The notes: generated from the sequence alone by a model not told the origin. A DNA stretch of 64,000 nucleotides from Lentisphaeria bacterium (GCA_017450705.1 JAFSTC010000092.1:1676-65675), one strand, 5' to 3'. Shown: positions 8,619 through 59,655, counted from the stretch's first letter. Made by a program: numbers and translations.

Positions 8619-9455
8619 CTACCCCCGGTCGTCCGGCGGCTCGTTTGAAAGGGTCTCCTTTCGGCAGATGCCGGGGGAGATGCCGTACATGCGCGTGAAG
8701 GCCGTGGTGAACCGGTAGCGGTTGGAGAAACCCGTGACTTCGGCGATGCGCTTTATGCTGATCTTGTTGATCTTCAGGAGATCCCACGCCAGCTCCAGCC
8801 GTTTGTTCATGATGTAGCGGCTGGGCGGGATCTTCATTTCGCGCTTGAAAAGATGCTGGAAACGGGTGACGGACATGCCGATCCTGCGGGCCAGCTCCCC
8901 GTTGTCCAGCTTGGGGATCGGGGACTTCGAGACCGCCGCGGCGATGATGTCCAGCGCCGTCCGGATCCTCGGATCCGGCGGGGGGCTCTCCTGCGGTTCG
9001 AATGCGCGTTCGGGGATCTCGTCCAGCAGAAAAAGGATCAGGGCGTTGACCGTCAGCGCGGAAAATTTTTCATTGCGGAACTTTCTCAGCAGCGCTTCGT
9101 AGGGGCGGACGGGAAAAACGACCGGCTCCTTCCGGATGCGGGCGAACTTTCCCCCCTCCAGCAGAAAATCGCAGAAAAATTGTTCGAATCCCCCGGACGA
9201 CGCCGCGGCGAACCGCAGATCCCCCGGGACAAGGTAGATGCAGTCGGGCTTCATGGAGATCTCCCTGTCGGCCAGGATCAGCCGTGCACCCGCCGTGAGG
9301 TTCCAGTAAACGTGCCACAGAGGCAAACTCCGCATGGGCACCTGCCATGTCTGAAGAACGCTTCGGGCGCAGTTGATCAGCGTGATCTTGGGGATCTCCC
9401 TTCCGGCCCGCTTCACCGCGGCAGAATACGATACATGTTTGACAATTTCCAGCAT
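8619..9455 (-). CDS. AraC family transcriptional regulator
   Basis: C-terminal double HTH: [40 protein letters not shown]...[26 protein letters not shown]. Start was moved to the ATG at 9455 (MLEIVKH...) to avoid overlapping the divergent gene. Confidence 0.85.
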
Positions 9456-9565
9456 TTTTCGACACAGGTCTCCGCGGTATACTATACACCGTGAACGGAG
9501 CCTTGACAATCGGAAAAAAGATTTTTTGTCCATCACAAAGCGGTTCTGCCGCGGGAGGGAAAAAC

Positions 9566-10429
9566 ATGAGAGCGCACGGGTCGGAAAAAGAGATGGTCTT
9601 TCGCAATTTCACGCCCCGGGAGGGAGGTCCCTTCCTCCTCAAATTCACCTTGATCGAACTCTTGGTCGTCGTCGCCATCATCGCCATACTGGCGGCGATG
9701 CTCATGCCCGCGCTGCAGCAGGCGCGCGAGACGGCCAAGGCGATCTCGTGCACGTCGAAGGAGAAACAGCTCCACTCGGCGGTCATGTTCTACGCCGACG
9801 CCAACGGCGAATGCCTCCCCGCGGGGGCCAAGTGGGTGATGAGCCTCGTTCCGAAATACCTGCCCAAGGTCTCGCCGACCAGTCCGGACAACAAGCCGTG
9901 GGAGAGCTCTTCCGCCGGCGTGGGGCCGTTGCTCTGCCCCTCCATCACGGCTTCCGACTGCGCTCCGGCGGATATCGGCAAAAATCTGCCCTTCATCACC
10001 AGCTACGGCGTCACAGCGTTCCGCTACGACTCCGAGTTCAACAGCTGGGGCGCGGCTTTTCAGGTGAAACTGAACAGGAAACAGTACGGCGGCTGGCAGC
10101 CCATCGGCGTGAAATGGGTCGGCGAAGGCTTGAATACACACAGAAAAGTCAGCACCATCCTTCCCAGCACGGTCATCATGAACGAAAAATTCTTTTCCGA
10201 CATGAACGGAACGGGCGTTTCCAGTCTGAACGGATACGCCTCCTGCGACAGTCAGAATACGGTCTACCTCAAGTGGAAACACGCCACCTTGGGTCTCGTG
10301 GGGCCGGACAAATACGCGCAGAACCGCCTGGTGCACGGCCAGAAAAACAACATGATCTTTTTCAACGGCGCCGTCAAAGCCATCAAAACCGGAACGGCCT
10401 TCGACGATCTCGACTGGACTTTGAAATAA
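9566..10429 (+). CDS. Prepilin-type N-terminal cleavage/methylation-domain protein (DUF1559 / H-X9-DG-like pseudopilin paralogue 1)
   Basis: Contains [32 protein letters not shown] at 9566 is preceded by GGGAGGGA. The C-terminus has a variant H-X9-NG ([12 protein letters not shown]). Confidence 0.85.
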
Positions 10430-10450
10430 AAGATCCGGCAAGGAGGGAAT

Positions 10451-13400
10451 ATGAGCAGATTTCTCTGTATGCTTTTGGCCGCCCTCTGCGGCGTGATGCT
10501 CGCCGCGAAGGATTTCTCCGAGAAAGAACTGATCCTCAAAGGCGGCGCAACGCTGAAAAACGGCGTCGTCACCCTCGACGGAACAAGCGGCTACATCGAA
10601 CTTGCCGGAACGGAAGACTGGAACATCGGCAAAAAGGGGCTCACCTGCGCCGGGGCGTTCAAACTGTACGACAGCGCCCTGAGCAGCGGCAAAAAAGACT
10701 CCTTCGACATGTTTTTCTCCAAAGCGGGGACGCCCTTCATTTTCGGGCGCTACAGCCACTACGCCCACCAGCTCTACTCCAACATCGCCGGCCGGGAAAA
10801 GGGCAGGAAAATGGCTGCGCCCGTGATGAGCGAATTCCAGCCGGAACCCGGCGTGTGGCACCACTTCGCCGTGGTCTATGAGTATTACAACGACCACGCC
10901 CAGGGGGATGTCGGCTATTACACCACTATGTACGTCGACGGCAACCGGGTCGGCCGCGGGGAACACCCCTTCATCGAGCCGCTTCAAACTGCGGGACGGA
11001 TCGAAGTCGGCCGGGGCTGGGGCGGTCCGTGGTTCTTCCGCGGGGAAATCACCGAGATCCGCGCGTTCCCCGAGGCGCTGAACGAAGCCGCCGTCGCCGA
11101 ACTGGTGGATTCCAGCCGGTATGTCAAGGTCAAGTCCGCGCGCAAAGTCAATCCCGCGCTGGAAAAACTCACCGCCGAGTCTCCGGCGGGCCGCTGGGCG
11201 CTCCGGGCGCTGCACCGGCTGGAGCCCGAACAGGGAACGGCGGCCGCAGCGAAACTGGAAGCGGCTTTCGGGGCAAAGGACGATGCGGCATTCATCCGGG
11301 CCTTCGACCCCGCCTGCGGCGCGGCGCTGATCGTGAAGCCCCAGGTTTTGCTCCTCGTCGGCAAAACGGTCGGCACTGGCGAACCTCTGCTGGGAATGTA
11401 CGACCGCATCGGTCAAAGAAGCGTGCTTGAGGACAAACTTCTCAACTGGAGTTTCACGGGCAGACGCCAGGGCAAAAAGGTCAGTGCAAGTTCCGGCGAC
11501 CTGAAATACACGATCAAAGATCTCGGCGGCAAAGGCTTCACGGCGGTCTGGCGGAGCGTCGCTCCCCTCAAGTTCACTGCCGAAGCCCGGTATGAGTTTC
11601 TGAACGACGGCATCGGCGCAAGTCTCCGGATCGACAACGAAACATCCGATCTCGTCCTCCGCGAAGTGGTCTTCCCCGAGACCCGCACGCCGAAACTGGG
11701 GGACGACGACGCGTTCCTCTACCCCTTCCAATGCGGTGCCGAGATCAACGACCCGACACGCAACTCCTTCAAACGCGGACAGTTCGGCAAATACCCCTCC
11801 GGCACGATGACCATGCAGTTCACGGCGTACTACGGCAACGGCCGCGGGGTCTTCCTCGGCTGGCGCGATCCCCGGGGCACCCTCAAAAACATGCAGGCCA
11901 CCGGCAAGCGGGGCGGCATGGAGTTCTCCTGGAGCCAGTGCGTCGCGATCCCGCTTGACAAACGGCAGGGCGGGAATCATTACGCAAGTTTCGGCTCCGT
12001 CGTCTTCCGGGTCTACTCCGGGCGCTGGTTCGAGGCGTGTCAGCTCCACAAGCAGTGGGCGCTCTCGGAAGCGGTCTGGAAAAAGCCCGTTCCGAGGCGG
12101 GACACCCCGGAGTGGTTCCGGAACATTCCCGCCGTATTCAACTATTCCGTGCTGGATCAAAATACGGCCATGACCCGTTATGCCCAGTTGACGGCGATCC
12201 GCGCCTATCTGGACGTGCCGATCTACTGCCCGACCTATGCCTGGAACGACCCGGCGCTGGGCTGGTGGCCCTGTTTCCGGGCCCGCAAGTTCATTCCCGG
12301 GATCTATAAACAGCTGCTCAAGGAGGAGTGCATCGTCGAACCCTACATCGACTCCCGGCTGTGGGCCGTCATGGACGGTCCCGACCGGAAAACCGACTGG
12401 CGCTACAGCTCCCACGGGAAAAAGTTCGCCGTCATCGACGAAAACGGCAAGATCCCGCTGGAGCATTACGGACCCACCGTTTACGCCATCATGTGCCCGG
12501 CGGTCAAGGGCTGGCAGGACGAGCTTTTCGGGCAGACGCGGTACGTCCGCACGCTGGCCCCCGCCGTGTATCACGATCAGGTCATGACGGGTTACGGGAT
12601 CCCCTGCTTCAACCCGGAACACGGTCACGCGCTCAACGATCCCTCGGTCTGGCTGGATCAGGGCTACCGGCCCCTCTACCGCAGGATCAGAAGCGCCATG
12701 CCGGGCGTGGTCCAGACCTCGGAGGAAGTCTCCGAAGCCTACCTCGACCTCTTCGACGGCGGTCACGTCTGGCGCTGGTTCTTCGACGACCAGGTCCCGG
12801 CATTTCAGGCGGTCTACGGCGGCCGGGCCCAGTATTACTCATTGGTCTTCGACTCCCATGGCAAGGGGGAATACGCCTCCAACTTCGTCAAGATGGGCAA
12901 CTGTCTTGTCAACGGCCTCAAGATCGGCAAGTTCGAGCTTCAGGAGGTCCATAAGGCGGACATGAAGCGGCTTTACATCAAGAAGATGTGCCATCTGCGC
13001 ATGGCGCTCAACGATTATTTCAACAACGGCGACATGCTGGCCCCCATCCGTTTCGCCGAACCGCTGCCGCTGCTCACAACGGGCTGGTCCACCGACAGCA
13101 AGGCGCTGGAGCAAGTCACCATGCCGAAGATCGTCTCCAACAGCTACCGGCTCGGGGAAAACGAGGTTTTCATCTTCGTGAACACGACCGGTGAGAAACT
13201 TGTCTGCAAGCCCCTCGTCCCGGCGGAGTTCCTCTGCGTCGAGGGAGCCGTCGCGCCGGTGAGATTCCGCGGCATCGTCGAGCTGGGACCCTATCAGTCT
13301 GCCGTTGCGCTCCGCGGCACGGCGAAGGAGGCGGCAAGACTTCAGGAGACGCTGAAAAAGATCGCCTCGTTCACCCCCGGGAAATCTTTCGACAATCTGG

Positions 13401-13819
13401 TGAAGTTCGAAAATCTGCGGAAGATCGAGGGAATCCCCGGCAAGTGGTACAAGCCCGAAGACGCCTCCGGGTTCTACAATCTTTCGAAATCCGCCTCCGG
13501 TAAATATTTCGGGAACACGGCGGAGGGCTCCCTCGTTTCCTACGGCGTCGTCGATTTCGGTTCCCGGAAGGTGTCGGAGATCTTCGTCAAAACCGCCGTG
13601 CCGGAAAATTATTCCGGCGGGACGGTCGAACTCTTCGCCGGGTCTTCGCAGAACAGCTGCCGGCGCGTCGGCGTGTTCAAGGTCCCCGCAACGTCGAACT
13701 GGCTGGATTTCCGCGAATCGGAATTCAAACTGGATACGCCGTTGACAGGTGAAAAATTCATCATGTTCCGCTTCGACCGGAACGGGTGCTGCAACTTTTC
13801 GGAATGGAGGTTTTTATGA
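10451..13819 (+). CDS. Secreted 1122-aa multidomain protein: N-terminal LamG/concanavalin-like domain, large uncharacterised glycoside-hydrolase-like core, C-terminal CBM-like beta-sandwich
   Basis: Signal peptide MSRFLCMLLAALCGVMLAA. LamG hallmarks are WHHFAVVYEY...YVDGNRVG...GRGWGGPWFFRGEITEIRAFPEAL. The C-terminus GSLVSYGVVDFG...VELFAGS...NWLDFRESEFKL...FMFRF is CBM6/35-like. It is a paralogue of 20896-24294. Confidence 0.8.
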   Translation: MSRFLCMLLAALCGVMLAAKDFSEKELILKGGATLKNGVVTLDGTSGYIELAGTEDWNIGKKGLTCAGAFKLYDSALSSGKKDSFDMFFSKAGTPFIFGRYSHYAHQLYSNIAGREKGRKMAAPVMSEFQPEPGVWHHFAVVYEYYNDHAQGDVGYYTTMYVDGNRVGRGEHPFIEPLQTAGRIEVGRGWGGPWFFRGEITEIRAFPEALNEAAVAELVDSSRYVKVKSARKVNPALEKLTAESPAGRWALRALHRLEPEQGTAAAAKLEAAFGAKDDAAFIRAFDPACGAALIVKPQVLLLVGKTVGTGEPLLGMYDRIGQRSVLEDKLLNWSFTGRRQGKKVSASSGDLKYTIKDLGGKGFTAVWRSVAPLKFTAEARYEFLNDGIGASLRIDNETSDLVLREVVFPETRTPKLGDDDAFLYPFQCGAEINDPTRNSFKRGQFGKYPSGTMTMQFTAYYGNGRGVFLGWRDPRGTLKNMQATGKRGGMEFSWSQCVAIPLDKRQGGNHYASFGSVVFRVYSGRWFEACQLHKQWALSEAVWKKPVPRRDTPEWFRNIPAVFNYSVLDQNTAMTRYAQLTAIRAYLDVPIYCPTYAWNDPALGWWPCFRARKFIPGIYKQLLKEECIVEPYIDSRLWAVMDGPDRKTDWRYSSHGKKFAVIDENGKIPLEHYGPTVYAIMCPAVKGWQDELFGQTRYVRTLAPAVYHDQVMTGYGIPCFNPEHGHALNDPSVWLDQGYRPLYRRIRSAMPGVVQTSEEVSEAYLDLFDGGHVWRWFFDDQVPAFQAVYGGRAQYYSLVFDSHGKGEYASNFVKMGNCLVNGLKIGKFELQEVHKADMKRLYIKKMCHLRMALNDYFNNGDMLAPIRFAEPLPLLTTGWSTDSKALEQVTMPKIVSNSYRLGENEVFIFVNTTGEKLVCKPLVPAEFLCVEGAVAPVRFRGIVELGPYQSAVALRGTAKEAARLQETLKKIASFTPGKSFDNLVKFENLRKIEGIPGKWYKPEDASGFYNLSKSASGKYFGNTAEGSLVSYGVVDFGSRKVSEIFVKTAVPENYSGGTVELFAGSSQNSCRRVGVFKVPATSNWLDFRESEFKLDTPLTGEKFIMFRFDRNGCCNFSEWRFL

Positions 13820-14499
13820 AAAAGTCGTTCCCGATCTTGTCCGTCATCGCCGCAAGCGTCATGGTTTCCGCGCAGGAGCCCGTGCTCGACTACGACTACA
13901 CGTCCGGTACCTTCGAGCGCAAGGGAAAGCTGGCCGCTCCGGTCATCGCGGGTGAAACGCTCATGGCCGAGGAGATGCCCGGCGCGATCCGCTTCGACGG
14001 CAAAAAGAATTTCATGACGATCCCCGGCGGCAAGGCGGTCTCGCTCAAAAACGGCGGCACGCTCTTCGCCTTCGTGCGCTTCGCCGAGGACGAGGAGCAC
14101 GGCATGCTGTTTTTCAAGAACAACGAATTCCTGCTGGGCCTCTCCAACAAAAACCGGCTGTACTTCAATCTCCGGGCGTCCGGCAGCGAAAAATTCGACA
14201 CGCCCGTCATGATCACGCCCGTTCCCCGGGGCAAGTGGTGCACCGTGGCCGTCGTGTTGAAACCGTGGAAAAACGGCTCGTGGACCGCGTTTCTTTTCAT
14301 CGACGGCGAGAGAAAAGGCTCCCGCACGTTCAAGTTCAAGGGCGAATATCCGGAGCCGCAGAGCGAGCTCACCGTCGGCCGGGGCTGGGGCGGGACCTGG
14401 TTCCTCGCCGGCGACATCGGCGCTCTCAAAATCTTCGAGACGCCCCTGGACGAAAAGCAGGTCCTCGAGCTCTCCCAAAAATATCTCACCGCCAAGTGA
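13816..14499 (+). CDS. Secreted stand-alone LamG/concanavalin-like domain protein
   Basis: Signal peptide MKKSFPILSVIAASVMVSAQ. Motifs WCTVAVVL...FIDGERKG...GRGWGGTWFLAGDIGALKIFETPL mirror the LamG domain of the upstream gene. The ATG overlaps the upstream stop (ATGA at 13816-13819). Confidence 0.8.
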   Translation: MKKSFPILSVIAASVMVSAQEPVLDYDYTSGTFERKGKLAAPVIAGETLMAEEMPGAIRFDGKKNFMTIPGGKAVSLKNGGTLFAFVRFAEDEEHGMLFFKNNEFLLGLSNKNRLYFNLRASGSEKFDTPVMITPVPRGKWCTVAVVLKPWKNGSWTAFLFIDGERKGSRTFKFKGEYPEPQSELTVGRGWGGTWFLAGDIGALKIFETPLDEKQVLELSQKYLTAK

Positions 14500-14546
14500 C
14501 CCCTTGCAAACCCCGCCGGGAGGCTGTATAGTAAGCGGCAGAATAT

Positions 14547-14629
14547 GCCGCTTTTTTTGAAAAAAGATGGGGGCCCGGGGGAAGGAAAAAACTTTTTTCA
14601 CGGGAAAAAAGTTTTTTTCCTTCCCCCGG
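14547..14629. repeat. Copy A (inverted orientation) of a dispersed intergenic repeat, fused to a roughly 24-bp-stem hairpin
   Basis: GCCGCTTTTTTTGAAAAAAGATGGGGGCCCGGGGGAAGG is the reverse complement of the core found at 18992 and 49444. CCGGGGGAAGGAAAAAACTTTTTT / loop cacggg / AAAAAAGTTTTTTTCCTTCCCCCGG forms a near-perfect hairpin (14575-14629). Confidence 0.8.
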
Positions 14630-14664
14630 TTTCCTCAGCCTTTATAAAACAAAAGGGACAGATC

Positions 14665-49500: not shown

Positions 49501-49519
49501 CGGGGCCGCTTGCCTTTGT

Positions 49520-51861: not shown

Positions 51862-51862
51862 G

Positions 51863-52579
51863 TCAAATGCTCCTTTGTGCCGCGCAGCTTGCGACGAAAG
51901 CCGCGAACAATCTGCCGCAGTGCCGGTCCTCCGGCATGCGTTCGGGATGCCACTGCACCCCGACGCGGAAAATGTTTCCTTCGAATTCGACGGCCTCGAT
52001 GACGTCGCCGCTCCACGCGGCGATCCTGATCCCCTCCACGAGGCGGTCGGGATCCAGGGCCTGGTGGTGGAAGCTGTTCAGCCGGATCCCGCCCGCGCCG
52101 AAAATGCCGGCGAGACGGGTGCCCGGTTCGATGGTCCCCCAGTGGTACTGCGGTCCGCCCCGCCTGACGTGGAGGGCCGCCCGTTCTCCCAGGTCGGGAA
52201 TGAGTTTTCCCCCGAAGGCGACGTTGAATTCCTGCATGCCGAGGCAGATCCCCAGGGCGGGGAGGCCGCGGGAAAAGACCTTTTTTACCAGCGTCAAGTG
52301 ATTTTGCGCGACATGGAGATCCAGCGTCGCGCCCGTCGGCTCCCCTCCGCCGTAAAGGGCGGGCGGCAGGTCGGCCCCGCCGATAAACAGCATGCCGTCG
52401 ATCATGTCCAGATAGTGATCCAGCAGTTCCTCCGGCATGAAGGCGGGGATGGCGACGGGCAGTCCCCCCGCGGCGGTCACCGCTTTGTCGTAGGTGCTGG
52501 GATGGATGTACAGGTCTCCTCCCGGCACGTCCCGCGCGATGCGCGTCGTCGTGAGGCCGATGCGGGGCGGGGAGATCAT
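51863..52579 (-). CDS. Class-I glutamine amidotransferase / peptidase C26 (gamma-glutamyl-GABA hydrolase PuuD-like)
   Basis: GICLGMQ is the nucleophile elbow, followed by NSFHHQAL and VGVQWHPE. True start is the ATG at 52579 (MISPPRIG), overlapping the upstream stop (ATGA). The track's longer ORF is an artefact. Confidence 0.85.
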   Translation of the reverse strand: MISPPRIGLTTTRIARDVPGGDLYIHPSTYDKAVTAAGGLPVAIPAFMPEELLDHYLDMIDGMLFIGGADLPPALYGGGEPTGATLDLHVAQNHLTLVKKVFSRGLPALGICLGMQEFNVAFGGKLIPDLGERAALHVRRGGPQYHWGTIEPGTRLAGIFGAGGIRLNSFHHQALDPDRLVEGIRIAAWSGDVIEAVEFEGNIFRVGVQWHPERMPEDRHCGRLFAAFVASCAAQRSI

Positions 52580-54828
52580 TCGAGCGACCTTCCGTTTGCT
52601 TTTTTCCCGAAACGGACGGGGCCGAAGAGACCGCCGGAGAGGGAGTCCTGCTCGTAGCTGCGCTGACTGTCCTCGTAGGGCGAGCGCGGCGGGAAGCAGC
52701 GGCTGACTCTCTCCTCCACCCCGGGGGCGGAAAGCGCGTTGGCCAGCGTGTTGCTGACGGTGATCTTCAGGCGGTTCCTCCCCCGCTTCAGCGCCGGACC
52801 GAGGTTGAAATAAAAGGGGGAGCGGAAGCGGTATCCGAGTTCTCTGCCGTTGAGCGTGACGGAGGCGCAGTAACGGACTTGCCCCAGATCGAGCCAGAGG
52901 GATCTTTCGCAAGTCTCGAACGTCGTGATGTAGCAGGCGTCCCCGCTGAAGCCGGAGGTGAGGAACTTCTCCCACGGGCCGAGTTCCGCGGGCATCGGGT
53001 CCTCCCGGCGGGATTTTACCTCGATGTCGCTCTCCCCGACGAAGTGCCGGCGGAGCACCTGAAGGCGCCAGGCAAGTTCGGCAGGCTCCTCCCAGCGGAA
53101 GACCGGCATTTTCTTTTTTCCCTTCTGGCCGGAGATGAATATCGCCGAACCGCAGGGCTCGAAATGCCAGTCGAAACTCGCCCCTTCGAGGGCATAATCG
53201 CCGCTTCCCCAGGGATCGCGGAAAAGCACAGGCGCCTGATCCAGCGTGAGATTCACGTCAAGAGGAAGCGTTCCCTCGTTCACGCACAGCCAGACCGTCT
53301 TTTTGCCCCATCTGCGGCAGCTGACCCGCAGCTGCGGCGCTTCCGGGCGGCATTTCAGCAGCGGTACGGGGGGGCGGGAGCGGAACTTTTTTACCGTTTC
53401 CAGCGCGGCGGGAGGCATGAAATCGGAAGTGGGGACGATCAGACTTGCGTACGCCATTTTCCCGACGATGAGTTTGCCGTTTTCTATTTTTGCCCGGGCC
53501 AGGGCGTCGTCGTCCACGTAGTCGAAGTCGCATTGCTTCTCCTGCAGACGGGCGGCGGCGTCTTCCCGGCGTTCGGAGGCCCGGGAGCGATAGGGTTCCC
53601 CGGCCCAGAGGGAGCGCTGATCGAAGTAGACGGCCGTGTCCACGACCGGTTTCCCCCGGGTCATGGTGTCGGAGATGCGTCCGCAGTAATCGTGGAAAAC
53701 GGCGCTGTATTTCCACAGCGGGTCCACCGGTCCCAGATGGGGGCGGCAGCCGAAGATGAAGTGCTTTTTGCAAGTCAGAGCGTATTTGCTGAAAACCAGC
53801 AGATTGACGCCGCGCACCTGCATGTAGTCCGCGATGAAGCATCTCTGCTCGGGCGTGAGACCGTTCCCGTAGACGGCGAAAAGCTCCGCCATGGCGTATC
53901 TGCGTCCGGCCTGCCGCGCGACGGAGGAGGCCAGATGGGGGAAGGCCGGATTTTTCTTCCCGGGGAAGATCTGCCGCCAAATGGCGTCGACGCCGGGGAG
54001 ATCCATGCAGCGCAGACTCCGCATGATGTGTCCGTGGCCGTGCTGGGAGCTCAAATGCGGTTCGTCTTCGCCCCCGAAGTGCCCGCCGGCCAGGATGCCG
54101 TGCCTGCGGCACCACGAACGCACCGGCAGGAGGAAACGCTCCGCGAAAAGCAGGGAGAGCAGATCGAAGTAATCGACGGCGACTTGCGGCGGCGCCGTTT
54201 CCCGGATCAGATCCGGGATCCATTTTTCCAGGCTGTAGCCCTTGCGTTTCCCGAAGACCTCTCCCAGATCGGGAGCCCAGGCGATCTGCTGGTCCCTGTA
54301 GCATCCCGGCAGTCTGGGTTCGTCCATGAAAGTGAAGGGGAGCATGCTGCCGAAAAGTTTCGGGAAGAACTTGAAATACCGTTCGTGGGTCAGTTCGAGG
54401 AATTTCTCCGCGACGCCGGGGACGAGCAGATTCGGCAGCGGGGCCCGCCAGTTCGGGCGCTGAGGGTCTGTCCGCTCGCCTTCCGGCGTCATGTATCGGG
54501 GGGCGAACCTTTCGGGATCGCTGGCCCGGACCCTGCCGCCCGCGCCCCCCGACGGCCAGCCGCCCTCGTCGTAAAGACAGCAGACGATCCCCAGTTTCCG
54601 GCATTCGTCAAAAATTATTTTGAACCGTTCGAAATAGGCGTCGGATAGATACTCCGGCTCCATGTCGGACGGCATCTTCTCGGGACGGAACTCCGGAGGC
54701 CAGGGATGCGGACACACATGGGTGACGTTTTGCTTGCGCATTTCCCGCAACTGCGCTTTGAGCACAGCCGGGTCCATTTTCGTATTGAGGTACCAGAAAT
54801 AGTAGGGCCCCGTGATCCTGCCGTTCAT
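52576..54828 (-). CDS. Glycoside-hydrolase-like protein (GH106 / alpha-L-rhamnosidase-type by inference) with C-terminal GH2-type sugar-binding jelly roll
   Basis: N-terminus GPYYFWYLNTKMDPAVLKAQLREMRKQNVTHVC. C-terminus LDLGQVRYCASVTLNGRELGYRFRSPFYFNLGPALKRGRNRLKITVSNTLANAL. Start was set at the ATG at 54828, 16 nt after the upstream stop. Confidence 0.7.
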   Translation of the reverse strand: MNGRITGPYYFWYLNTKMDPAVLKAQLREMRKQNVTHVCPHPWPPEFRPEKMPSDMEPEYLSDAYFERFKIIFDECRKLGIVCCLYDEGGWPSGGAGGRVRASDPERFAPRYMTPEGERTDPQRPNWRAPLPNLLVPGVAEKFLELTHERYFKFFPKLFGSMLPFTFMDEPRLPGCYRDQQIAWAPDLGEVFGKRKGYSLEKWIPDLIRETAPPQVAVDYFDLLSLLFAERFLLPVRSWCRRHGILAGGHFGGEDEPHLSSQHGHGHIMRSLRCMDLPGVDAIWRQIFPGKKNPAFPHLASSVARQAGRRYAMAELFAVYGNGLTPEQRCFIADYMQVRGVNLLVFSKYALTCKKHFIFGCRPHLGPVDPLWKYSAVFHDYCGRISDTMTRGKPVVDTAVYFDQRSLWAGEPYRSRASERREDAAARLQEKQCDFDYVDDDALARAKIENGKLIVGKMAYASLIVPTSDFMPPAALETVKKFRSRPPVPLLKCRPEAPQLRVSCRRWGKKTVWLCVNEGTLPLDVNLTLDQAPVLFRDPWGSGDYALEGASFDWHFEPCGSAIFISGQKGKKKMPVFRWEEPAELAWRLQVLRRHFVGESDIEVKSRREDPMPAELGPWEKFLTSGFSGDACYITTFETCERSLWLDLGQVRYCASVTLNGRELGYRFRSPFYFNLGPALKRGRNRLKITVSNTLANALSAPGVEERVSRCFPPRSPYEDSQRSYEQDSLSGGLFGPVRFGKKANGRSLE

Positions 54829-54844: not shown

Positions 54845-55636
54845 TCAGAGAGAAAACTCATTGGCGTACCCCTGCCGCAGCAGATCGCGGCTGAGCGTGC
54901 CGTTGAATTCTTTCCACTCCGTCCTCTGGATCTTGCGGGCATGCCCATCCAGATAGGAACCGTTCACGTACTGGCCGTCGAGGCAGTAGTGGACGTTGGC
55001 GCCGTTCAGACGGACCGCGCCGGAACCGTGACGGGTCGCGATCTCGCATCCCAGAGTGGGATTGTTCCCGATCGTGGCGAAGAAGGGGGACGCCCGATTG
55101 ACGGTGTCGAGGATCGTCAGCGCGATTCCGGGTCTCGTGACGCTGCTGGCCTTTCTCGGACGGTAAGTCGTGTTGACCTGATTGTAGCCGCACAACAGGG
55201 CGTTGACCGCGTAATGCCCGTAGGAAAAGAAATCGCCCTTGGAGCTCGAACCGATCGGCTGGGGCTCCGACGGACAGGAGAACAGGGGGTAACTGACCTT
55301 GGCGCTGGCAAAACTCAAAGAGGGATTCGGCATGCCGCAGACGATAGAGGCGACCACGCTGCTCCACGGATGGGTGTTTTCGGAACCGGTCCTCTGATTG
55401 AGACCGGCGATCAGCCAGCCGTCATTGGCGTCGACGTAACTCTGAAACCCCATGATCTGCTGCTTGAGATTGCTGACGCACGAGGAGTCCTTGGCCGCGT
55501 TCCTCGCCTGCCCCAGCGCCGGCATCAGCATCGCGGCCAGTATGGCGATGATGGCGATGACGACCAGCAGTTCGATCAGGGTGAAACGCCGCACCGGTTT
55601 TTTCATGCCGTTTCTTTTCCGTTGGATCCCGTTCAT
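54845..55636 (-). CDS. Prepilin-type N-terminal domain protein (paralogue 5)
   Basis: [46 protein letters not shown] opens the protein. The ATG is preceded by AAGGAG. The C-terminus is ...SYLDGHARK. Confidence 0.88.
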
Positions 55637-55685
55637 GTTTTTCTCCTTTCCCGTATTCGGTGCAAATTCCGTGTTTTTTTCGGCG

Positions 55686-58484
55686 TCATTCGATTTCCAG
55701 CAGCCATGTGTGAGGCTGATCCGCTTTCAGGGTGAAGGTTTTCGCGTCCCTTGCGACGACTTCTCCCGTGAAGCAGTCCGTGACCTTTGCGGCCTTTTTC
55801 TTCAGCGTCACCGTGACGGTCCCCTTTTGGCTCAGATATCCCTTCATGATCCGGCTCTCGGGAGGGACGTTGGCGTTTTTGCCGCTGAATATCTGCAGAA
55901 GACGGGAGTTGCTGCGGACGTAAAATCCCGGTTCCGTCCAAGCGTGACATCCCGCCGCCTTGAGAAGATCCGCCCAGATCCCGGGATCGTTGACGGGCAG
56001 TCCCGAAAAGACGGCGACGGAGCCGTCCGGCAGACGCTTCCGCACCAGCGCGGGTGTTTTGCCGTCGGCATAGACGCCGAGTTTCTCCGCATCGGGATCG
56101 GCGCAGAACACCCGGGGCGACTCCGTGTAGTCCGAGGGGACGGCAAAGGGTTTGATCTGTCTCCCGTCCTCAAGACAGATCGCGAAACCCTTCTGCCCGG
56201 TCGTGAAATCAAGTCCGATCCCCGTCAGTTTCTTCATCGATCCCGCGCCGCAGCCCTCTTCGGCCAGAAGACCGGGCGCGTAGTTCCAGATGGCAGTGAC
56301 GCCCGGCTTGCGGATTTTTTTCAGCAGAGCTTCCCGCCGTTCCGGCGTGATCTGGTAGAGATTCAGCAGGATCACCGCTTTGTAATCGCGGGAGGAATCA
56401 ACGTAGTCCCCGAGTTCGAACAGATCATAGCCGTACCCCGACAAGTTCAGCGTCTGCAGGGGGAAGGTGGAAAGCTGATTCGAGAAGCGCAGCGACTTCT
56501 GGTAGATGGGATGTCCCTGTTTCCACGCCTGATCCTCGATCATCACCACGGCGACGTCGTTGTTCCACTCCGGCGGTTCCGCATACAGGCGGCGCCACAG
56601 GGCGATGCCTTTCGCCATGGATTCGAGCGCCTCCGGACAGTTGAACCATCTGGTCTTCTTGCCGAAGTCCACGGCGTGATATGAGGCGCCGCAGAAGAAA
56701 CTGTTGCCGATGACTTTTTGGAAGGTCGACCGGGTCTCCTCCGGAGTCTTGCAGCGCCAGCGTTCGTCGGCTTCCCCTTTGCCCGTGTGGGGCCTGATGT
56801 CGCACTCGATGCTGGAGAGTTTGCCATAGCGGTGGAACGCACTGAAAAGATGCCTCGTGAGTCCGTCGGTCAGATTGTACCCTCTTGTCGTCGCCCAGAG
56901 GAAATCGATCCACTTCGACTTCAGCACCGGTTCCGCGTTGGCCGTGGAACCTTCCGGCTCATAACCGAGGATCACGTAACCGTACCAGCTGCCGGCGAGG
57001 CGGCCCGGCAGAAAAGTTTTGACGGCCTTGCCCATGCTGATCATGTAGTCGGCGAACTCCTTGTGATAGGATTCGTAGTAGTCGCTGACCCTGCGGTCGC
57101 GGGGATCGCCGGGGTCTTTCAGGTAACGGCCCGCCCCGTGACGCTGTTCCTTGTCGGGGACCGCCGCCGTGCCGAGGGTGACCCGGGGGTCGTTCCACGA
57201 CTTCTGAAGGTTTTGGTCGGTGCCGTATTTTACTTTCAGGTGACGGCGGAACGCCTCGGTCATCCGTTTCCCCGTATCGGGCATGCAGTGGCATCCCCAG
57301 GGCATGCCGTCGTAGGAGGCGCCGTAGGCGACCTTCACTCCGATGACCCGGCGGCCCCAGGTTTTTTTGCGGACGAAATTCCCCAGCTGCCGGATCATGT
57401 CTGCCGTTTCGTCGCGGAACGCCTGCGAGGCGAAGGAGGGCGCCGGCGGGTTCGCGAAGTAGTCGTAGGGATTCCTCCCGTCGCTTTTCACGGCGAATCC
57501 CACAAGTTCGTCGGGATTTTTCCTCAGCCATGCGTTGGGCGGCGTCCCGCCGGTGGAGATGATGAAATAAGCGTTGGGATCGATGGAGAGGATGTGGCGG
57601 ATCCCGACGTCGAGTTCTTCGAAATCATAGGTCCCGAGCCCGGTGTGGAAGGCGTCGATGACGAATCCCAGACAGTAGATCCCGATCCCCGCTTTGGCGG
57701 CCTGTGCGATCAGGGCGTCCTGCGCCGGGATCGAATTGATCTGCAGCGAACTCAAGGTGTGGGGCGGGATCACCCGGCCGTTGACCCGGATCCCGGGGAT
57801 CCTCCCGCGGTAGACGATCTTGCACTCCGGATCGGCCGGTTCCCGCAGCAGCCGCGCTTCGGGATAGCCCCGGCTGCTTTCGCGCAGGTAATTTCGGTAC
57901 TCCTCCTTCGTGCAGTAGATCCGGGCGATGCTGCCGAAGCGGCTCCAGGGCAGAGAGAGGACATCCCCCTGTTCCCAGGCCGGGAGCCAGCCGGAACTGT
58001 CGAACTCCGCCGTATTCCAGCCGGGAGCTTCACGGCCCGACGCCTTGAACTGTTTTCCCGAACTCGCAAGAGGAATGACTTTGCCGTTTTCGAGGACGAT
58101 CTCTCCGCGCAGCATCAGCCCGAAGCACCCCTTTTTGTTGCGTCCGAGCTTGAAGGCAAGAACATTTTTTCCCGGCTTCAGCAGTTTCGAAAATTCGACT
58201 CCCACGCCCTTGACGTGGCCGCGGTATTTCCGCAGGGGTTCCCAGAAATGCAGTTCCAGCGGCTTCCCGTTGAGAAACGCTTCGCAGCGTTTGTCGGCCC
58301 AAGTGTGGAAATAAGCCCGTTTCACGGGAGAATCGATGGAGAACTCGCATCGCAGATAGGCCGTCACCGGGGGATCGCTTTGGGGCTGACTCCACAGCCA
58401 CTGGGCCTCGGATACGGATTTTGCCCGGAGACTTGCGCCGCTCCAAAGAGAAAACAGCAGCAGCAGAACGAACGTCTTTCTCAT
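55686..58484 (-). CDS. Secreted 932-aa glycoside-hydrolase-like protein: N-terminal galactose-binding/rhamnosidase-N-like jelly roll + GH42-like (beta-galactosidase-type) TIM barrel and trimerisation-like domain
   Basis: Signal peptide [22 protein letters not shown]-terminus AQWLWS...YLRCEFS...FLNGKPL...[10 protein letters not shown]. The middle region is [29 protein letters not shown], followed by [34 protein letters not shown]. Confidence 0.72.
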
Positions 58485-58805
58485 GGGAATGCTCCTTAAA
58501 ATATGCGGTTGTCGCTTTTTCTCCCGCAGACCGATTTCAAAAGTCCATGAAAAGGATCCTCCGGGCTTTTGAATCCGTCTCCTCCCTTTACTTTACTTTA
58601 CTTGAAATAATTCTCTTCGGCAATGACCGGTTTTCTCTTTTTGCAACCTGTTTTCTCAAATGAAATCAATTTTACCGACTTCCGCCGGGGACGTTTTTCC
58701 GGATGCTTCCGAATTTCCGTCCCCCCCCGCCGCTCCGATGTAAAAACTTGCAAAGTCGCTCTAACCCGGCTATATTTTAATATAGCGTATTTAAGCGATA
58801 TTGAA

Positions 58806-58849
58806 ATGTCGATTGTTTCAAAAAAAGATGTCGATTCTTGCAAAAAAGG
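58806..58849 (+). repeat. 22-nt tandem duplication at the 5' end of the AraC gene, each unit starting with ATG
   Basis: ATGTCGATTGTTTCAAAAAAAG / ATGTCGATTCTTGCAAAAAAGG match at 19 of 22 positions. Confidence 0.85.
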
Positions 58850-59655
58850 CGCAGCTTCCCAAGCCTGACTACAGGGAAGACATCACCGGCTTCAGATGGA
58901 TGTCCCGGCCGGAGATCCAGCTCATCAAGTACAATATCGATCTCCACGTGACGCACTGGAACGTTCCCGAGAAGCGGAACAACCCCTTTTTCTACTGCTA
59001 CTGGAACAAGACGCCGGGGGCGGAGATCCATGCGGGCGGCAAGGTCTGGCCGCTTTCGCCGGACTCCATCATGCTGATCCCGCCGAATCTGGAGCACAGT
59101 CCCGTCCTGACGGCTCCCTTCAACCACAGTTTCATCCACTTCATCGCGCTGCCGCCCTTCGATTCGCTGAACAGCATCGAACTTGTTCCGGCCGAAAGAC
59201 ACGCCCGCCTTTTCAGAAGATATGAGAGCGAAGCCAAGACGTCACTTGCGCTCTATGCGCTGATTTTCGGTCTGCTGCTGGAGATTCCGGAAGAGCGTTT
59301 CTGCCGCCGTCAGATCGGAGACGAACGCATTTTCCACGCCTGCCGGCTGCTCTCCCTCTGCCGCGGTCAGGAGCCGTCGCTGAAGGATCTGGCCCGCAAA
59401 CTCAATATGTCCGTGAGCAGTTTATGCCACCTTTTCAAGCGCGAGACGGGGGTCTCCCCCATCCGCTACGCCATGGAACGGCGGCTGGAAAAGGCCCTGA
59501 TGCTCCTCGCGGATCGGCACGTCTCCATTTCGGACATCGCCGGGGAGACGGGTTTTTCGGACCGCTACCATTTTTCCAAAGCCTTCAAGGCCCGTTACGG
59601 CAAGACGCCGGTCCAGATGCGGAGGACCCTTGCGGCCCCCCTTCTTCCGGAGTGA
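58828..59655 (+). CDS. AraC family transcriptional regulator
   Basis: HTH LKDLARKLNMSVSSLCHLFKRETGVSPIRYAMERRLEKALMLL...IAGETGFSDRYHFSKAFKARYGKTPVQMRR. ATG at 58828 was chosen; the track start at 58801 is TTG. It is divergent from the 58484 operon. Confidence 0.85.
   Translation: MSILAKKAQLPKPDYREDITGFRWMSRPEIQLIKYNIDLHVTHWNVPEKRNNPFFYCYWNKTPGAEIHAGGKVWPLSPDSIMLIPPNLEHSPVLTAPFNHSFIHFIALPPFDSLNSIELVPAERHARLFRRYESEAKTSLALYALIFGLLLEIPEERFCRRQIGDERIFHACRLLSLCRGQEPSLKDLARKLNMSVSSLCHLFKRETGVSPIRYAMERRLEKALMLLADRHVSISDIAGETGFSDRYHFSKAFKARYGKTPVQMRRTLAAPLLPE

What the first reader, a model, noticed from the sequence alone, without database searches (positions are those of the whole stretch)
8619..59655. 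Five-fold recurrence of an AraC / prepilin-like / giant CAZyme module: a PUL analogue without SusC/SusD
Five prepilin-type N-terminal-domain genes occur in 64 kb (9566, 25834-, 33468, 44613, 55636-). Each sits inside a tight same-strand run, directly upstream (12-21 nt gap) of a large carbohydrate-active or unknown protein that usually carries a signal peptide. The downstream partners are 10451-13819; 24291-25037 followed by 20896-24294; 34187-36685; 45303-49289; and 52576-54828. In four of the five runs an AraC gene is divergently transcribed from the first gene of the run (8619-9455, 32294-33370, 42113-42970, 58828-59655). The fifth run has an AraC gene convergent at its end (18125-18979). 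No secretin, GspE/PilB ATPase, platform protein or prepilin peptidase lies in the window, and no TonB-dependent receptor either. The repeated synteny suggests that each prepilin-like paralogue is a dedicated partner of its neighbouring enzyme, for example in surface display, secretion targeting or substrate capture, rather than a pilus subunit. The DUF1559/H-X9-DG family is known to be hugely expanded in PVC bacteria with no established function. A one-per-glycan-locus arrangement would be a concrete functional lead.
Basis: partly seen in the sequence, partly recalled or inferred. Interest (0 to 1): 0.7.

Follow-up and report, generated by a model that had tools for sequence, protein, structure and literature searches.

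The report
Pilin-like gene in every glycan operon
In this Victivallales-type (Lentisphaerota) genome piece, each sugar-polymer-degrading operon has its own regulator and its own small pilin-like protein; the pairing recurs across the lineage and gives a testable lead on one of the largest protein families of unknown function in PVC bacteria.

Summary
The window holds five pilin-like genes of the DUF1559/H-X9-DG type. Each lies 11-21 nt upstream of the next gene in a same-strand run that contains large glycoside-hydrolase-like proteins, and AraC genes flank the runs (six AraC genes, not five). It is more than chance: window hypergeometric p=0.003. In independent Lentisphaerae loci the downstream partners are larger (median 729 vs 336 aa), more often carry signal peptides (75% vs 21%), and match CAZyme families. 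Orthologues down to 43% identity keep the pilin-giant enzyme order. A reverse search from the enzyme found a pilin-like gene beside it in 5 of 5 usable loci. Ten more paralogues all sit in CAZyme runs beside a regulator (AraC, LacI, GntR or IclR). The coupling appears in Lentisphaerae loci and not in the other PVC loci sampled. The five proteins share an invariant 29-residue N-terminal helix, but their heads are only 23-29% identical, and models show a pilin fold. I read them as locus-specific plug-in subunits of a shared type II secretion/type IV filament machine encoded elsewhere, serving enzyme export or tethering, or else glycan capture. Unexpectedly, they lack the canonical glycine before the cleavage site. 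One 2026 paper mentions a comparable case in passing. I rate it a new variant of a known kind, interest 0.62.

The parts
8619..9455 (-). AraC-family regulator 1, divergent from run 1
   Evidence: HTH_18 E=3.5e-19. A sigma-70-like site lies at 9509-9481.
9566..10429 (+). Pilin-like protein 1 (287 aa): K at -1, FTLIELL helix, H-X9-NG near the C-terminus
   Evidence: AF2 model with pLDDT 71.7 shows a 51-residue alpha1 plus a beta head. Orthologues P0001-P0010.
10451..13819 (+). Secreted giant, LamG-DUF6259-CBM6 (1122 aa), 21 nt after pilin 1
   Evidence: Pfam. Signal peptide. 53-76% identical orthologues follow the pilin orthologues.
13786..14499 (+). Small secreted LamG protein (probable start at 13816)
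   Evidence: Laminin_G_3 E=4e-14. Conserved after the giant in L085 and L087.
14545..16233 (+). GH3 glycosidase, possibly a separate transcription unit
   Evidence: Glyco_hydro_3 E=4.6e-61. A hairpin plus T-run lies at 14533-14553 and a promoter-like site at 14504-14532.
18125..18979 (+). AraC-family regulator 2 (cupin + HTH), convergent with the end of run 2
   Evidence: A 17-bp hairpin at 19208-19247 lies between the convergent genes.
19382..20863 (-). Secreted GDSL esterase, last gene of run 2
   Evidence: Lipase_GDSL_2. Signal peptide.
20896..24294 (-). Secreted giant, LamG-DUF6259 (1132 aa), paralogue of 10451-13819
   Evidence: Pfam. 25% identity over the full length. Orthologous locus L096.
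24291..25037 (-). Secreted 248-aa protein of unknown family, 11 nt after pilin 2
   Evidence: No Pfam hit. Signal peptide. No homologue in the fetched loci.
25049..25834 (-). Pilin-like protein 2 (261 aa): S at -1, exact H-X9-DG
   Evidence: N_methyl 31.6 bits; DUF1559 23.2 bits (cut-off 23.3) on profile positions 1-30 only. AF2 pLDDT 76.7. Motif.
32294..33370 (-). AraC-family regulator 3, divergent from run 3 (start may be at 33238)
   Evidence: HTH_18 E=4.8e-19. Start-codon alternatives.
33468..34172 (+). Pilin-like protein 3 (234 aa): D at -1, H-X10-DG
34187..36685 (+). Secreted DUF4838 protein (GH20-like clan), 14 nt after pilin 3
   Evidence: DUF4838 E=3e-7. Signal peptide from the ATG at 34187. 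Pilin followed by DUF4838 recurs in L085, L098 and 3 of 20 other partners.
36687..37556 (+). Secreted 289-aa protein of unknown family, end of run 3
   Evidence: No Pfam hit. Signal peptide.
42113..42970 (-). AraC-family regulator 4, divergent from run 4
   Evidence: HTH_18 E=6.4e-20. Promoter-like sites at 43023-42996 (-) and 43146-43173 (+).
43197..44549 (+). FAD-dependent oxidoreductase (PF12831), first gene of run 4, no signal peptide seen
   Evidence: E=1.5e-83. N-terminus.
44613..45287 (+). Pilin-like protein 4 (224 aa): K at -1, exact H-X9-DG
   Evidence: The identical protein occurs on three metagenome contigs with the same neighbours.
45303..49289 (+). Secreted giant, CBM9 / GH123_N-like (1328 aa), 15 nt after pilin 4
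   Evidence: Pfam. Signal peptide.
49520..50434 (-).
   Evidence: A perfect TTGACA-17-TATAAT lies at 50421-50393 if the gene starts at 50371.
50497..51861 (-). 454-aa protein of unknown family in run 5
   Evidence: No Pfam hit.
51863..52579 (-). Peptidase C26 / class-I glutamine amidotransferase-like protein in run 5
   Evidence: E=6e-43.
52576..54828 (-). GH106-like protein (750 aa), 16 nt after pilin 5, no signal peptide
   Evidence: Glyco_hydro_106 E=5.7e-10. N-terminus.
54845..55636 (-). Pilin-like protein 5 (263 aa): R at -1, H-X13-DG variant
55686..58484 (-). Secreted GH42-like giant (932 aa), first gene of run 5
   Evidence: Glyco_hydro_42 E=5e-6. Signal peptide with the start at 58484.
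58828..59655 (+). AraC-family regulator 5, divergent from run 5
   Evidence: HTH_18 E=3.7e-24. Promoter-like site at 58748-58776.

Best explanation
The window is ordinary chromosome of a Victivallales-type bacterium (FtsK, LpxK, RecJ and MutS are interspersed). It carries five substrate-inducible glycan-degradation operons. Each operon has three kinds of part:
- a dedicated transcription factor (AraC here);
- a short type-IV-pilin-like protein of the DUF1559/H-X9-DG superfamily, placed first or second in the operon;
- one or more large Sec-exported glycoside-hydrolase-like proteins.
This architecture is shown. I put it at about 0.85.

Mechanism (inferred). All the pilin-like paralogues keep the same 29-residue N-terminal helix, which is the part a pilin uses to sit in the inner membrane and dock to the assembly platform and to neighbouring subunits. 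Their heads have diverged almost beyond recognition. I therefore read them as interchangeable plug-in subunits for one shared type II secretion / type IV filament machine encoded elsewhere. When the regulator senses its glycan, the operon supplies both the enzyme and a locus-specific subunit, and the subunit's head links that operon's cargo to the machine.

I commit to this version: the head binds the co-expressed periplasmic enzyme and hands it to the pseudopilus for export across the outer membrane, or keeps it tethered at the surface. In other words it is a cargo-dedicated minor pseudopilin. I put this at about 0.4. Glycan capture by the head is nearly as likely and is listed as the first rival.
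For: Architecture:
- No terminator-like site lies in any pilin-enzyme junction.

Non-random and conserved:
- Window p=0.0026.
- In independent Lentisphaerae loci, 12/20 downstream partners are at least 600 aa against 43/251 controls (p=6e-5), and 15/20 have signal peptides against 53/251 (p=1e-6).
- Their Pfam hits are DUF4838, CBM9, LamG, GH67N, GH78, PL, heparinase, GH20, GH2 and GH123_N.
- Counting neighbours on either side, 18/33 pilin-like genes against 46/214 other genes have a large same-strand neighbour (p=1.5e-4).
- Orthologues at 57, 45 and 43% identity keep the order pilin, then DUF6259 giant, then small LamG. The divergent AraC is seen in the two loci with upstream sequence.
- The reverse search from the enzyme found an adjacent pilin-like gene in 5 of 5 usable loci.
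- Ten of ten further paralogues lie in CAZyme runs with a regulator within two genes.

Shared machine, variable head:
- The N-terminal 29 residues are essentially identical, yet their third codon positions differ by 21-45%, so this is purifying selection and not gene conversion.
- The heads are 23-29% identical.
- AF2 models (pLDDT 71.7 and 76.7) have a 51-residue alpha1 helix and a beta head. Foldseek and PDB sequence searches hit only pilins, through alpha1.
- The top NCBIfam hits are GspG, ComGC and PilA N-termini.
- The head essentially always occurs behind such an N-terminus.

Literature:
- In Verruconatronum alginivorum, a pulG-like pseudopilin lies inside an operon whose proteins are up-regulated on alginate. 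It has at least 67 paralogues, and a further pseudopilin is over-expressed on alginate. The authors suggest T2SS export of the lyases (PMC13274419).
Against: - No cargo-dedicated pseudopilin is known in model T2SS, which export many substrates with five pseudopilins (my own knowledge of the field).
- All five proteins lack Gly at -1 (they have K, S, D, K and R), as do about 94% of Lentisphaerae relatives. In model systems that glycine is needed for prepilin-peptidase cleavage, so filament incorporation is uncertain.
- The gene after pilin 5 has no signal peptide.
- In orthologous modules the head evolves faster (37-54% identity) than the enzyme (53-76%).
- Heads of paralogous modules with related enzymes are not specifically similar. 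A lock-and-key partner does not predict either of these two results.
- No machine genes are in the window, so their presence in this organism is inferred from relatives.
- No interaction was computed or measured.
Confidence: 0.4

Rival explanations
1. Glycan-capture or glycan-import pilins. The variable heads are lectin-like hooks for the glycan that the operon degrades. They are mounted on a shared, possibly retractile, type IV-like filament or pseudopilus. The filament binds the polymer and either holds it at the surface or pulls it through the secretin into the periplasm, where the Sec-exported enzymes act. In this view the pilin-like protein does the job of SusD/SusE, and possibly SusC as well.
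For: - The module has a regulator, one non-enzymatic component and enzymes, but no TonB receptor or transporter. In Bacteroidota PULs the non-enzymatic parts are binding and uptake proteins.
- The heads vary strongly and evolve faster than the enzymes, as is usual for exposed binding proteins.
- The enzymes carry only Sec signal peptides.
- ComGC, the DNA-uptake pseudopilin, is among the best N-terminal matches.
- In Akkermansia, pilus genes (MUL2: Amuc_1102 pilin, PilM) are needed for mucin uptake, and marine relatives take up labelled fucoidan (PMC13174399 and PMC12418764).
- Secretin, ATPase-type and platform genes are induced by laminarin in Lentisphaerae.
Against: - No carbohydrate-binding module or lectin family is detected in the heads, and no structural match to one.
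- The enzymes already carry their own CBM6, CBM9 and LamG modules, which suggests they meet the polymer directly.
- The missing Gly at -1 raises the same doubt about filament assembly.
- No binding data exist.
Confidence: 0.3
2. Uncleaved inner-membrane anchors that are not filament subunits. In Lentisphaerae the family has lost prepilin-peptidase processing. The helix serves as a signal-anchor, and the head acts in the periplasm as a chaperone, scaffold or holder for the co-expressed enzyme or its oligosaccharide products.
For: - Residue -1 is G or A in only 3 of 38 and 7 of 110 Lentisphaerae-type proteins, against 53 of 56 in the other PVC loci.
- The leader is short and basic and is followed directly by the hydrophobic helix, like a type II membrane anchor.
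- Loss of G-1 and coupling to CAZyme runs are both seen in Lentisphaerae loci and not in the other PVC loci sampled.
Against: - F1, E5 and the whole helix remain invariant in every paralogue under purifying selection. A mere membrane anchor would not need that. In pilins E5 pairs with the free N-terminus of a neighbouring cleaved subunit (my own knowledge of the field).
- The peptidase of this lineage may simply accept other residues at -1.
Confidence: 0.15
3. Periplasmic solute-binding proteins, as the Pfam identifier SBP_bac_10 implies. They would deliver oligosaccharides to transporters or sensors.
For: [quoted passage not shown]
- The genes are co-located with sugar-responsive regulators.
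Against: - The Pfam match covers only profile positions 1-30, which lie just after the hydrophobic N-terminal segment and within the predicted long alpha1 helix.
- The AF2 models show a pilin-type alpha1 plus a small beta head, not a two-lobed binding-protein fold. Foldseek gives no binding-protein match.
- No ABC or other sugar transporter is in any of the five runs.
Confidence: 0.05
4. No functional link. Two very abundant gene classes (hundreds of pilin-like paralogues and hundreds of CAZymes) simply lie next to each other often.
For: Both classes are very dense here: 5 pilin-like and about 12 CAZyme genes among 43. The family is huge, with 6,939 hits at E<=1e-5 among the 8,000 candidates scored.
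Against: - Enrichment tests: p=0.0026, 6e-5, 1e-6 and 1.5e-4.
- Gaps of 11-21 nt.
- Synteny kept between orthologues at 43% identity.
- Reverse search 5 of 5.
- No such enrichment in the other PVC loci, where the family is also abundant.
Confidence: 0.03

Closest known systems
DUF1559 / H-X9-DG prepilin-like paralogue family of PVC bacteria (PF07596, TIGR04294 with TIGR02532)
   Same: Same N-terminal [14 protein letters not shown]...LLPA helix, the same conserved Cys after the helix and a CP motif, and a C-terminal H-X9-DG-type motif. The family is massively paralogous (74 copies in Rhodopirellula baltica, 68 in Planctopirus limnophila) and has no known function.
   Different: The window proteins are shorter (224-287 aa). 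They match the Pfam model only at its start and score below the TIGR04294 cut-off. They lack G/A at -1. They are coupled to CAZyme operons, whereas in the Planctomycetota loci sampled the gene is followed by a small (~130-150 aa) secreted protein and shows no excess of large neighbours.
pulG-like pseudopilin in the alginate operon of Verruconatronum alginivorum (Verrucomicrobiota; PMC13274419, 2026)
   Same: A pilin-like paralogue (at least 67 copies in that genome) lies inside a polysaccharide-degradation operon. Proteins of that operon are up-regulated on alginate, and a further pseudopilin elsewhere in the genome is over-expressed. The authors suggest T2SS export of the lyases.
   Different: It is a single case mentioned in passing, in another phylum, and that operon also has a transporter. 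No recurrence, statistics or one-per-locus rule was reported. Homology to the window proteins was not tested here.
Bacteroidota polysaccharide utilization loci (Sus-like systems)
   Same: One locus per glycan, with a dedicated regulator, enzymes and a non-enzymatic accessory protein, induced by the substrate.
   Different: There is no SusC/SusD pair, no TonB-dependent receptor, no hybrid two-component or ECF/anti-sigma regulator, and no transporter at all in the runs. By the usual definition these are CAZyme gene clusters, not PULs.
Type II secretion pseudopilins (GspG-K) and modular or minor type IV pilins
   Same: Class III-like N-terminus with F1 and E5, a ~50-residue alpha1 helix and a small beta head. 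Minor (pseudo)pilins are known to contact cargo or to carry binding modules (my own knowledge of the field).
   Different: Scores are far below the GspG equivalog cut-off (26-38 bits against 88.85). The genes are not in a gsp or pil operon. There is no Gly at -1. Copy number is far above the five per machine of model systems.
Akkermansia mucin utilization locus MUL2 (type IV-like pilus needed for mucin uptake)
   Same: A PVC bacterium in which pilus genes are required for glycan acquisition.
   Different: MUL2 is one locus with an archaeal-type pilin (Amuc_1102) and PilM. It is not a paralogue placed in each enzyme operon. No PilM or Amuc_1102-like gene is in the window.

Membership tests
Type IV pilin / pseudopilin (class III signal peptide, TIGR02532) | Hydrophobic N-terminal helix beginning F-T-L-I-E, with Glu at +5 | tested here: met
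   All five proteins have it. TIGR02532 scores 20.7-22 bits against a cut-off of 16.3.
Type IV pilin / pseudopilin (class III signal peptide, TIGR02532) | Gly (rarely Ala) at -1, the prepilin-peptidase cleavage site | tested here: not met
   The five proteins have K, S, D, K and R at -1. Lentisphaerae relatives have G/A in 3 of 38 and 7 of 110, against 53 of 56 in the other PVC loci.
Type IV pilin / pseudopilin (class III signal peptide, TIGR02532) | Pilin fold: a ~50-residue alpha1 helix packed on a beta-sheet head | tested here: met
   AF2 models have pLDDT 71.7 and 76.7, with helices 29-79 and 17-67 followed by beta strands. The only Foldseek hits with notable probability are pilins (1ay2, 6xxd, 3sok), and these are weak (E about 0.2).
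Type IV pilin / pseudopilin (class III signal peptide, TIGR02532) | Assembly machine in the same genome (ATPase, platform, secretin, prepilin peptidase) | not testable with these tools
   None is in the window and the rest of the genome is not available. Genes annotated by the authors as T2SS components exist and are laminarin-induced in Lentisphaerae strain zth2.
T2SS major pseudopilin GspG (TIGR01710 equivalog) | Score above the equivalog cut-off over the whole model | tested here: not met
   26.5-38.5 bits against a cut-off of 88.85. Only the N-terminal half of the model is matched (up to position 71 of 134).
DUF1559 (PF07596) / H-X9-DG (TIGR04294) | Pfam PF07596 match | tested here: inconclusive
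   Two proteins score above the gathering score (27.9 and 29.1 bits against 23.3), one just below (23.2) and two have no hit. All matches cover only profile positions 1-32 of 268.
DUF1559 (PF07596) / H-X9-DG (TIGR04294) | C-terminal H-X9-DG motif | tested here: inconclusive
   The motif is exact in pilins 2 and 4. Pilin 1 has H-X9-NG, pilin 3 H-X10-DG and pilin 5 H-X13-DG. TIGR04294 gives only 15.8 bits against a cut-off of 19, in pilin 2. His and D-G are invariant or nearly so in the 84-sequence alignment.
DUF1559 (PF07596) / H-X9-DG (TIGR04294) | Large paralogous expansion in PVC genomes | tested here: met
   Five copies in 64 kb. 6,939 database proteins at E<=1e-5 among the 8,000 candidates scored.
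Bacteroidota-type PUL | Adjacent SusC-like TonB-dependent transporter and SusD-like gene | tested here: not met
   No TonB_dep_Rec, Plug or SusD family was hit in any of the 43 genes.
CAZyme gene cluster (CAZyme plus transcription factor and/or transporter, dbCAN sense) | CAZyme genes co-located and co-oriented with a transcription factor | tested here: met
   All five runs carry GH-like or CBM-bearing genes with an AraC gene at one end. No transporter is present.
Akkermansia MUL2-type pilus locus | Amuc_1102-type pilin next to PilM | tested here: not met
   No PilM family hit in the window. The PDB sequence search with the five-protein profile did not return 7DSZ.

The most novel reading that the evidence does not exclude
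Lentisphaerae may replace the SusC/SusD route with a glycan-import pseudopilus. On this reading each operon contributes a hook subunit whose head recognises that operon's polysaccharide. A shared retractile T2SS/T4P-like machine then pulls the polymer through its secretin into the periplasm, much as competence pseudopili import DNA, and the Sec-exported giant enzymes digest it there. This would explain the absence of TonB receptors and transporters in the loci, the one-pilin-per-glycan rule, and 'selfish' uptake in PVC bacteria that lack SusCD. The lineage-wide loss of Gly at -1 would then mark an altered processing or assembly pathway for these subunits.
Probability: 0.25. Interest if true: 0.9.

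Novelty: new variant of a known kind. Interest (0 to 1): 0.62.

Why it matters
DUF1559/H-X9-DG prepilin-like proteins form the largest paralogue family in several PVC genomes, and their function is unknown. The searchable literature barely discusses them: four papers mention DUF1559 and none mentions H-X9-DG.

The results here show that in Lentisphaerae these genes are a standard, promoter-proximal, conserved part of substrate-specific CAZyme operons. That turns an open annotation problem into direct experiments: one gene knock-out per glycan, secretome analysis, and labelled-glycan uptake.

It also bears on how PVC bacteria, which are important glycan degraders in gut, rumen and ocean, move enzymes or polymers across the outer membrane without Sus-like or T9SS systems. 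Practically, a pilin-like gene could serve as a marker for delimiting glycan loci in these genomes. Many of the enzymes involved (DUF6259, DUF4838 and proteins with no Pfam match) are uncharacterised.

Tried and rejected
1. Solute-binding fold implied by the Pfam name: rejected by two AF2 models and Foldseek.

2. Gene conversion as the cause of the identical N-termini: rejected, because third codon positions differ by 21-45%.

3. Co-diversification of pilin heads with the partner's enzyme family across paralogous modules. There was no signal beyond true orthologues. The DUF4838-linked pilins of the window and of L085 are not specifically similar (30 bits), and pilins 1 and 2, both in DUF6259 runs, share only 25 bits.

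4. A shared sorting or docking motif at the termini of the partner enzymes: none seen by eye.

5. Homologues of the small secreted protein 24291-25037 next to other pilins: none found.

6. Structural analogues of the head in the PDB: none at E<0.1 other than pilins matched through alpha1. Sequence search of the PDB gave alpha1 matches only.

7. The terminator scan was uninformative overall, with counts at shuffle level. Rfam gave no hit.

8. Finding the source genome among GTDB species representatives failed, with a best match of 37% identity. The window matches ENA metagenome scaffolds only.

9. Literature searches for pilin or pseudopilin mentions in Kiritimatiellales, Pontiella and deep-sea PVC papers found nothing.

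10. A complex prediction of pilin plus enzyme could not be run with the tools offered.

Full report
**1. What is in the window**

Pfam and NCBIfam scans show ordinary chromosome: FtsK, an HlyD/AcrB efflux pair, LpxK, a Na+/H+ exchanger, RecJ, a PHP-domain protein and MutS. Five glycan-degradation runs are set into it.

The same sequence occurs on three ENA metagenome scaffolds of 50-84 kb. The closest named relatives of its pilin-like proteins are from Lentisphaeria and Victivallales MAGs.

**2.

Five genes encode 224-287-aa proteins: 9566-10429+, 25049-25834-, 33468-34172+, 44613-45287+ and 54845-55636-.
- Each has a short basic leader followed by FTLIELLVV(V/I)[14 protein letters not shown](Q/G)QAR.
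- TIGR02532 scores above its cut-off in all five. Pfam DUF1559 matches only its first ~30 positions, in three of the five. TIGR04294 is below its cut-off.
- By eye, the C-terminal motif is H-X9-DG in two, H-X9-NG in one, and H-X10-DG and H-X13-DG in the other two.

Each gene is followed after 11-21 nt by the next gene of a same-strand run. The runs are:
- Run 1: pilin, then LamG/DUF6259/CBM6 giant, small LamG protein, GH3.
- Run 2: pilin, then unknown secreted 248-aa protein, LamG/DUF6259 giant, GDSL esterase.
- Run 3: pilin, then DUF4838 protein, unknown secreted protein.
- Run 4: FAD oxidoreductase, then pilin, CBM9/GH123_N-like giant.
- Run 5: GH42-like giant, then pilin, GH106-like protein, C26 amidotransferase-like protein, unknown protein.

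AraC genes are divergent from the first gene of runs 1, 3, 4 and 5, and convergent with the end of run 2.

Three corrections apply.
- A sixth AraC gene (Cupin_2 + HTH_18) lies at 49520-50434(-).
- The GH106-like gene after pilin 5 has no signal peptide, while the upstream GH42-like giant has one.

**3. More than chance, and general in one lineage**

In the window, 4 of 5 pilin-like genes have a same-strand CAZyme gene within 60 nt downstream, against 4 of 38 other genes (hypergeometric p=0.0026).

A scan of GTDB species genomes with the five-protein alignment returned 80 loci from Lentisphaerota, Verrucomicrobiota, Planctomycetota and a few others. I called genes in all of them.

In the 31 Lentisphaerae loci there are 20 tightly linked downstream partners.
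- Their median length is 729 aa, against 336 aa for controls.
- Twelve of 20 are at least 600 aa, against 43 of 251 controls (p=6e-5).
- Fifteen of 20 have a signal peptide by a simple rule, against 53 of 251 controls (p=1e-6).
- Their Pfam hits are DUF4838, CBM9, LamG, GH67N, GH78, polysaccharide lyase, heparinase II/III, GH20, GH2, GH123_N and a CE15-like esterase.

Counting neighbours on either side, 18 of 33 Lentisphaerae pilin-like genes have a same-strand neighbour of at least 500 aa within 200 nt, against 46 of 214 other genes (p=1.5e-4). In the other PVC loci the figures are 8 of 45 against 59 of 365 (p=0.46). So, in this sample, the coupling is a Lentisphaerae trait and not a property of the whole family. 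In the Planctomycetota loci the gene is typically followed by a small (~130-150 aa) secreted protein.

**4. Conservation of the module**

Pilin 1 has a small orthologue group (P0001-P0010, 93-43% identity), separated from the paralogue cloud by 30 orders of magnitude in E-value. Three orthologues were looked up.
- The 43% orthologue has a divergent AraC gene, then the pilin, a 1119-aa LamG/DUF6259/CBM6 giant and a small LamG protein.
- The 45% orthologue has the pilin, the giant and the small LamG protein; its contig holds only a cut 116-aa gene upstream.
- The 57% orthologue has AraC, a 266-aa unknown protein, the pilin and the giant, which is cut by the contig end.

Within these modules the enzyme is 53-76% identical to the window's, but the pilin head only 37-54%. 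In one module the AraC gene is not orthologous, matching at 31% over the HTH domain only.

The reverse search, starting from an alignment of the DUF6259 giants, found six metagenome loci. All five with enough flanking sequence have a pilin-like gene beside the enzyme on the same strand. It lies upstream in three loci (in one of them, as in run 2, about 0.9 kb upstream) and just downstream in two.

Ten further paralogues were examined using precomputed Pfam labels for their neighbours; nine were chosen only for lying on long contigs, and the tenth lay in the flank of locus L085.
- All ten lie in CAZyme runs (GH5, BNR, GH123, GH2/GH20, DUF4838, GH28, GH42, LamG).
- All ten have a transcription factor within two genes: AraC, LacI, GntR-PBP or IclR.

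The recurrent unit is therefore regulator, pilin-like gene and CAZymes. AraC is only one of several possible regulators.

**5. Anatomy of the pilin-like proteins**

The 29-residue N-terminal segment is essentially identical in all five. Its third codon positions differ by 21-45%, so it is held by purifying selection and not homogenised by gene conversion. The heads are 23-29% identical.

In alignments of 73 and 84 relatives, the residues that are invariant or nearly so are the helix, one Cys just after it, a C-P pair, two Tyr, and the His, Asn and D-G of the C-terminal motif.

Two AlphaFold2 models (pLDDT 71.7 and 76.7; pTM 0.71 and 0.77) show a 51-residue alpha1 helix followed by short helices and a beta-sheet head. 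Foldseek against the PDB returns only type IV pilins, through alpha1, at weak scores, and nothing for the head. Sequence search of the PDB likewise matches only alpha1 of pilins and GspG. No two-lobed binding-protein fold appears, so the Pfam identifier SBP_bac_10 is misleading here.

A head-only search of 1.84 billion cluster representatives found 280 proteins at E<=1e-3. Almost all are 230-290 aa long with the head starting at residue 37-60, so the head essentially always sits behind a pilin-type N-terminus.

**6. An unexpected feature**

The residue before Phe1 is K, S, D, K and R in the window. In model systems this residue is the glycine required by prepilin peptidase (my own knowledge of the field).
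- In Lentisphaerae loci it is G in 3 of 38 and A in none.
- In the other PVC loci it is G or A in 53 of 56.
- Among 110 database relatives, mostly Lentisphaeria, it is G or A in 7.

So the lineage in which the gene is tied to CAZyme operons is also the lineage that has lost the canonical cleavage-site residue. Yet F1, E5 and the rest of the helix stay invariant. Either the peptidase of this lineage accepts other residues, or these proteins are not cleaved. I could not decide between these.

**7. How it most likely works**

Shown:
- The operon architecture.
- Its recurrence and conservation.
- The pilin-type fold.
- The pattern of a constant helix with a variable head.

Taken from the literature:
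[quoted passage not shown] It is induced 4- to 20-fold by laminarin (PMC11361711, supplementary file 2).
- In the verrucomicrobium Verruconatronum alginivorum, a pulG-like pseudopilin with at least 67 paralogues lies inside an operon whose proteins are up-regulated on alginate. A further pseudopilin is among the few other over-expressed proteins. The authors suggest T2SS export of the lyases (PMC13274419).
- In Akkermansia, pilus genes are required for mucin uptake.

Inferred: the paralogues are plug-in subunits of one shared machine. Their identical helices fit the same platform and the same neighbouring subunits, and their heads give each operon its own specificity.

I commit to the cargo-adaptor version, at about 0.4. 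In this version the head binds the co-expressed periplasmic enzyme and couples it to the pseudopilus for export or surface tethering. My reasons are these:
- The typical neighbour is a large Sec-exported enzyme.
- These enzymes carry CBMs, so they should meet the polymeric substrate outside the cell.
- These genomes have no T9SS or Sus-type surface system in view.

The glycan-hook version (0.3) fits the faster-evolving heads and the absence of any receptor or transporter. It leads to the more novel idea of a glycan-import pseudopilus. An uncleaved membrane-anchored periplasmic partner (0.15) is kept alive by the missing Gly at -1.

**8. Comparison with what is known, and novelty**

These are not PULs, because there is no SusC/SusD pair. 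They are CAZyme gene clusters with a transcription factor.

The pilin-like proteins belong to the type IV pilin superfamily by helix and fold, but they fail the Gly -1 criterion and the GspG equivalog threshold. They are divergent, short members of the DUF1559/H-X9-DG expansion.

That expansion is known. It is the largest paralogue group in Planctopirus and Rhodopirellula and has no known function. In the library searched, only four papers mention DUF1559 and none mentions H-X9-DG. None describes a systematic link to CAZyme operons. The 2026 Verruconatronum paper notes one such case in passing.

I therefore rate this as a new variant of a known kind: a lineage-wide operon architecture that gives a concrete functional lead for a very large orphan family. 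The mechanism remains unproven.

Noticed in passing
It sits at the tail of run 5, convergent with the GH123-like giant. If it starts at 50371, a perfect TTGACA-17-TATAAT lies at 50421-50393.
   Followed up: yes
window 9641-9643, 25790-25792, 33513-33515, 44667-44669, 55586-55588 (codon before Phe1); loci L001-L080: The residue at -1 of the prepilin-type cleavage site is K, S, D, K and R instead of Gly. In Lentisphaerae relatives G/A occurs in 3 of 38 and 7 of 110, against 53 of 56 in other PVC phyla. In this sample, loss of the canonical site goes together with coupling to CAZyme operons.
   Followed up: partly
window 18992-19049 and 49445-49502: A 58-nt intergenic repeat, 93% identical, lies in two convergent intergenic regions, each with an AraC gene on one side. 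Its nature is unknown; it may be a small repeat element.
   Followed up: partly
window 38770-38826 and 41968-42024: A 57-nt direct repeat (82% identical) lies at the 3' ends of the LacI gene and of the mannitol-dehydrogenase-like gene. The two copies bracket a pilin-free block of genes without signal peptides (unknown, PIG-L deacetylase, dehydrogenase).
   Followed up: no
window 19208-19247: A strong 17-bp hairpin followed by a T-run lies between the convergent AraC 2 and GDSL genes. It is the clearest terminator-like site in the region.
   Followed up: no
loci L036, L037, L042, L057, L063 (Planctomycetota): In Planctomycetota loci, DUF1559 genes (G at -1, helix ...AVLIALLLPAVQQAREAARR) are followed by a small secreted protein of ~130-150 aa rather than by a large enzyme. 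This suggests a different conserved pair.
   Followed up: no
L085 6950-12276 vs window 8619-13819: In orthologous modules the pilin head diverges faster (37-54% identity) than the enzyme (53-76%). In L085 the AraC gene is not orthologous (31% over the HTH only), so the regulator has been swapped.
   Followed up: partly
proteins P0037, P0047, P0056, P0066, P0110: Several database relatives have a broken N-terminus: FTLIELL-like residues run into unrelated sequence such as ...QHCRDF.... They may be frameshifted or mis-called pilin-like genes.
   Followed up: no
window 43197-44549 and 51863-54828: Runs 4 and 5 also carry genes without signal peptides: a PF12831 FAD oxidoreductase, a GH106-like protein and a C26 amidotransferase-like protein. 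The runs therefore mix exported and apparently cytoplasmic steps.
   Followed up: no
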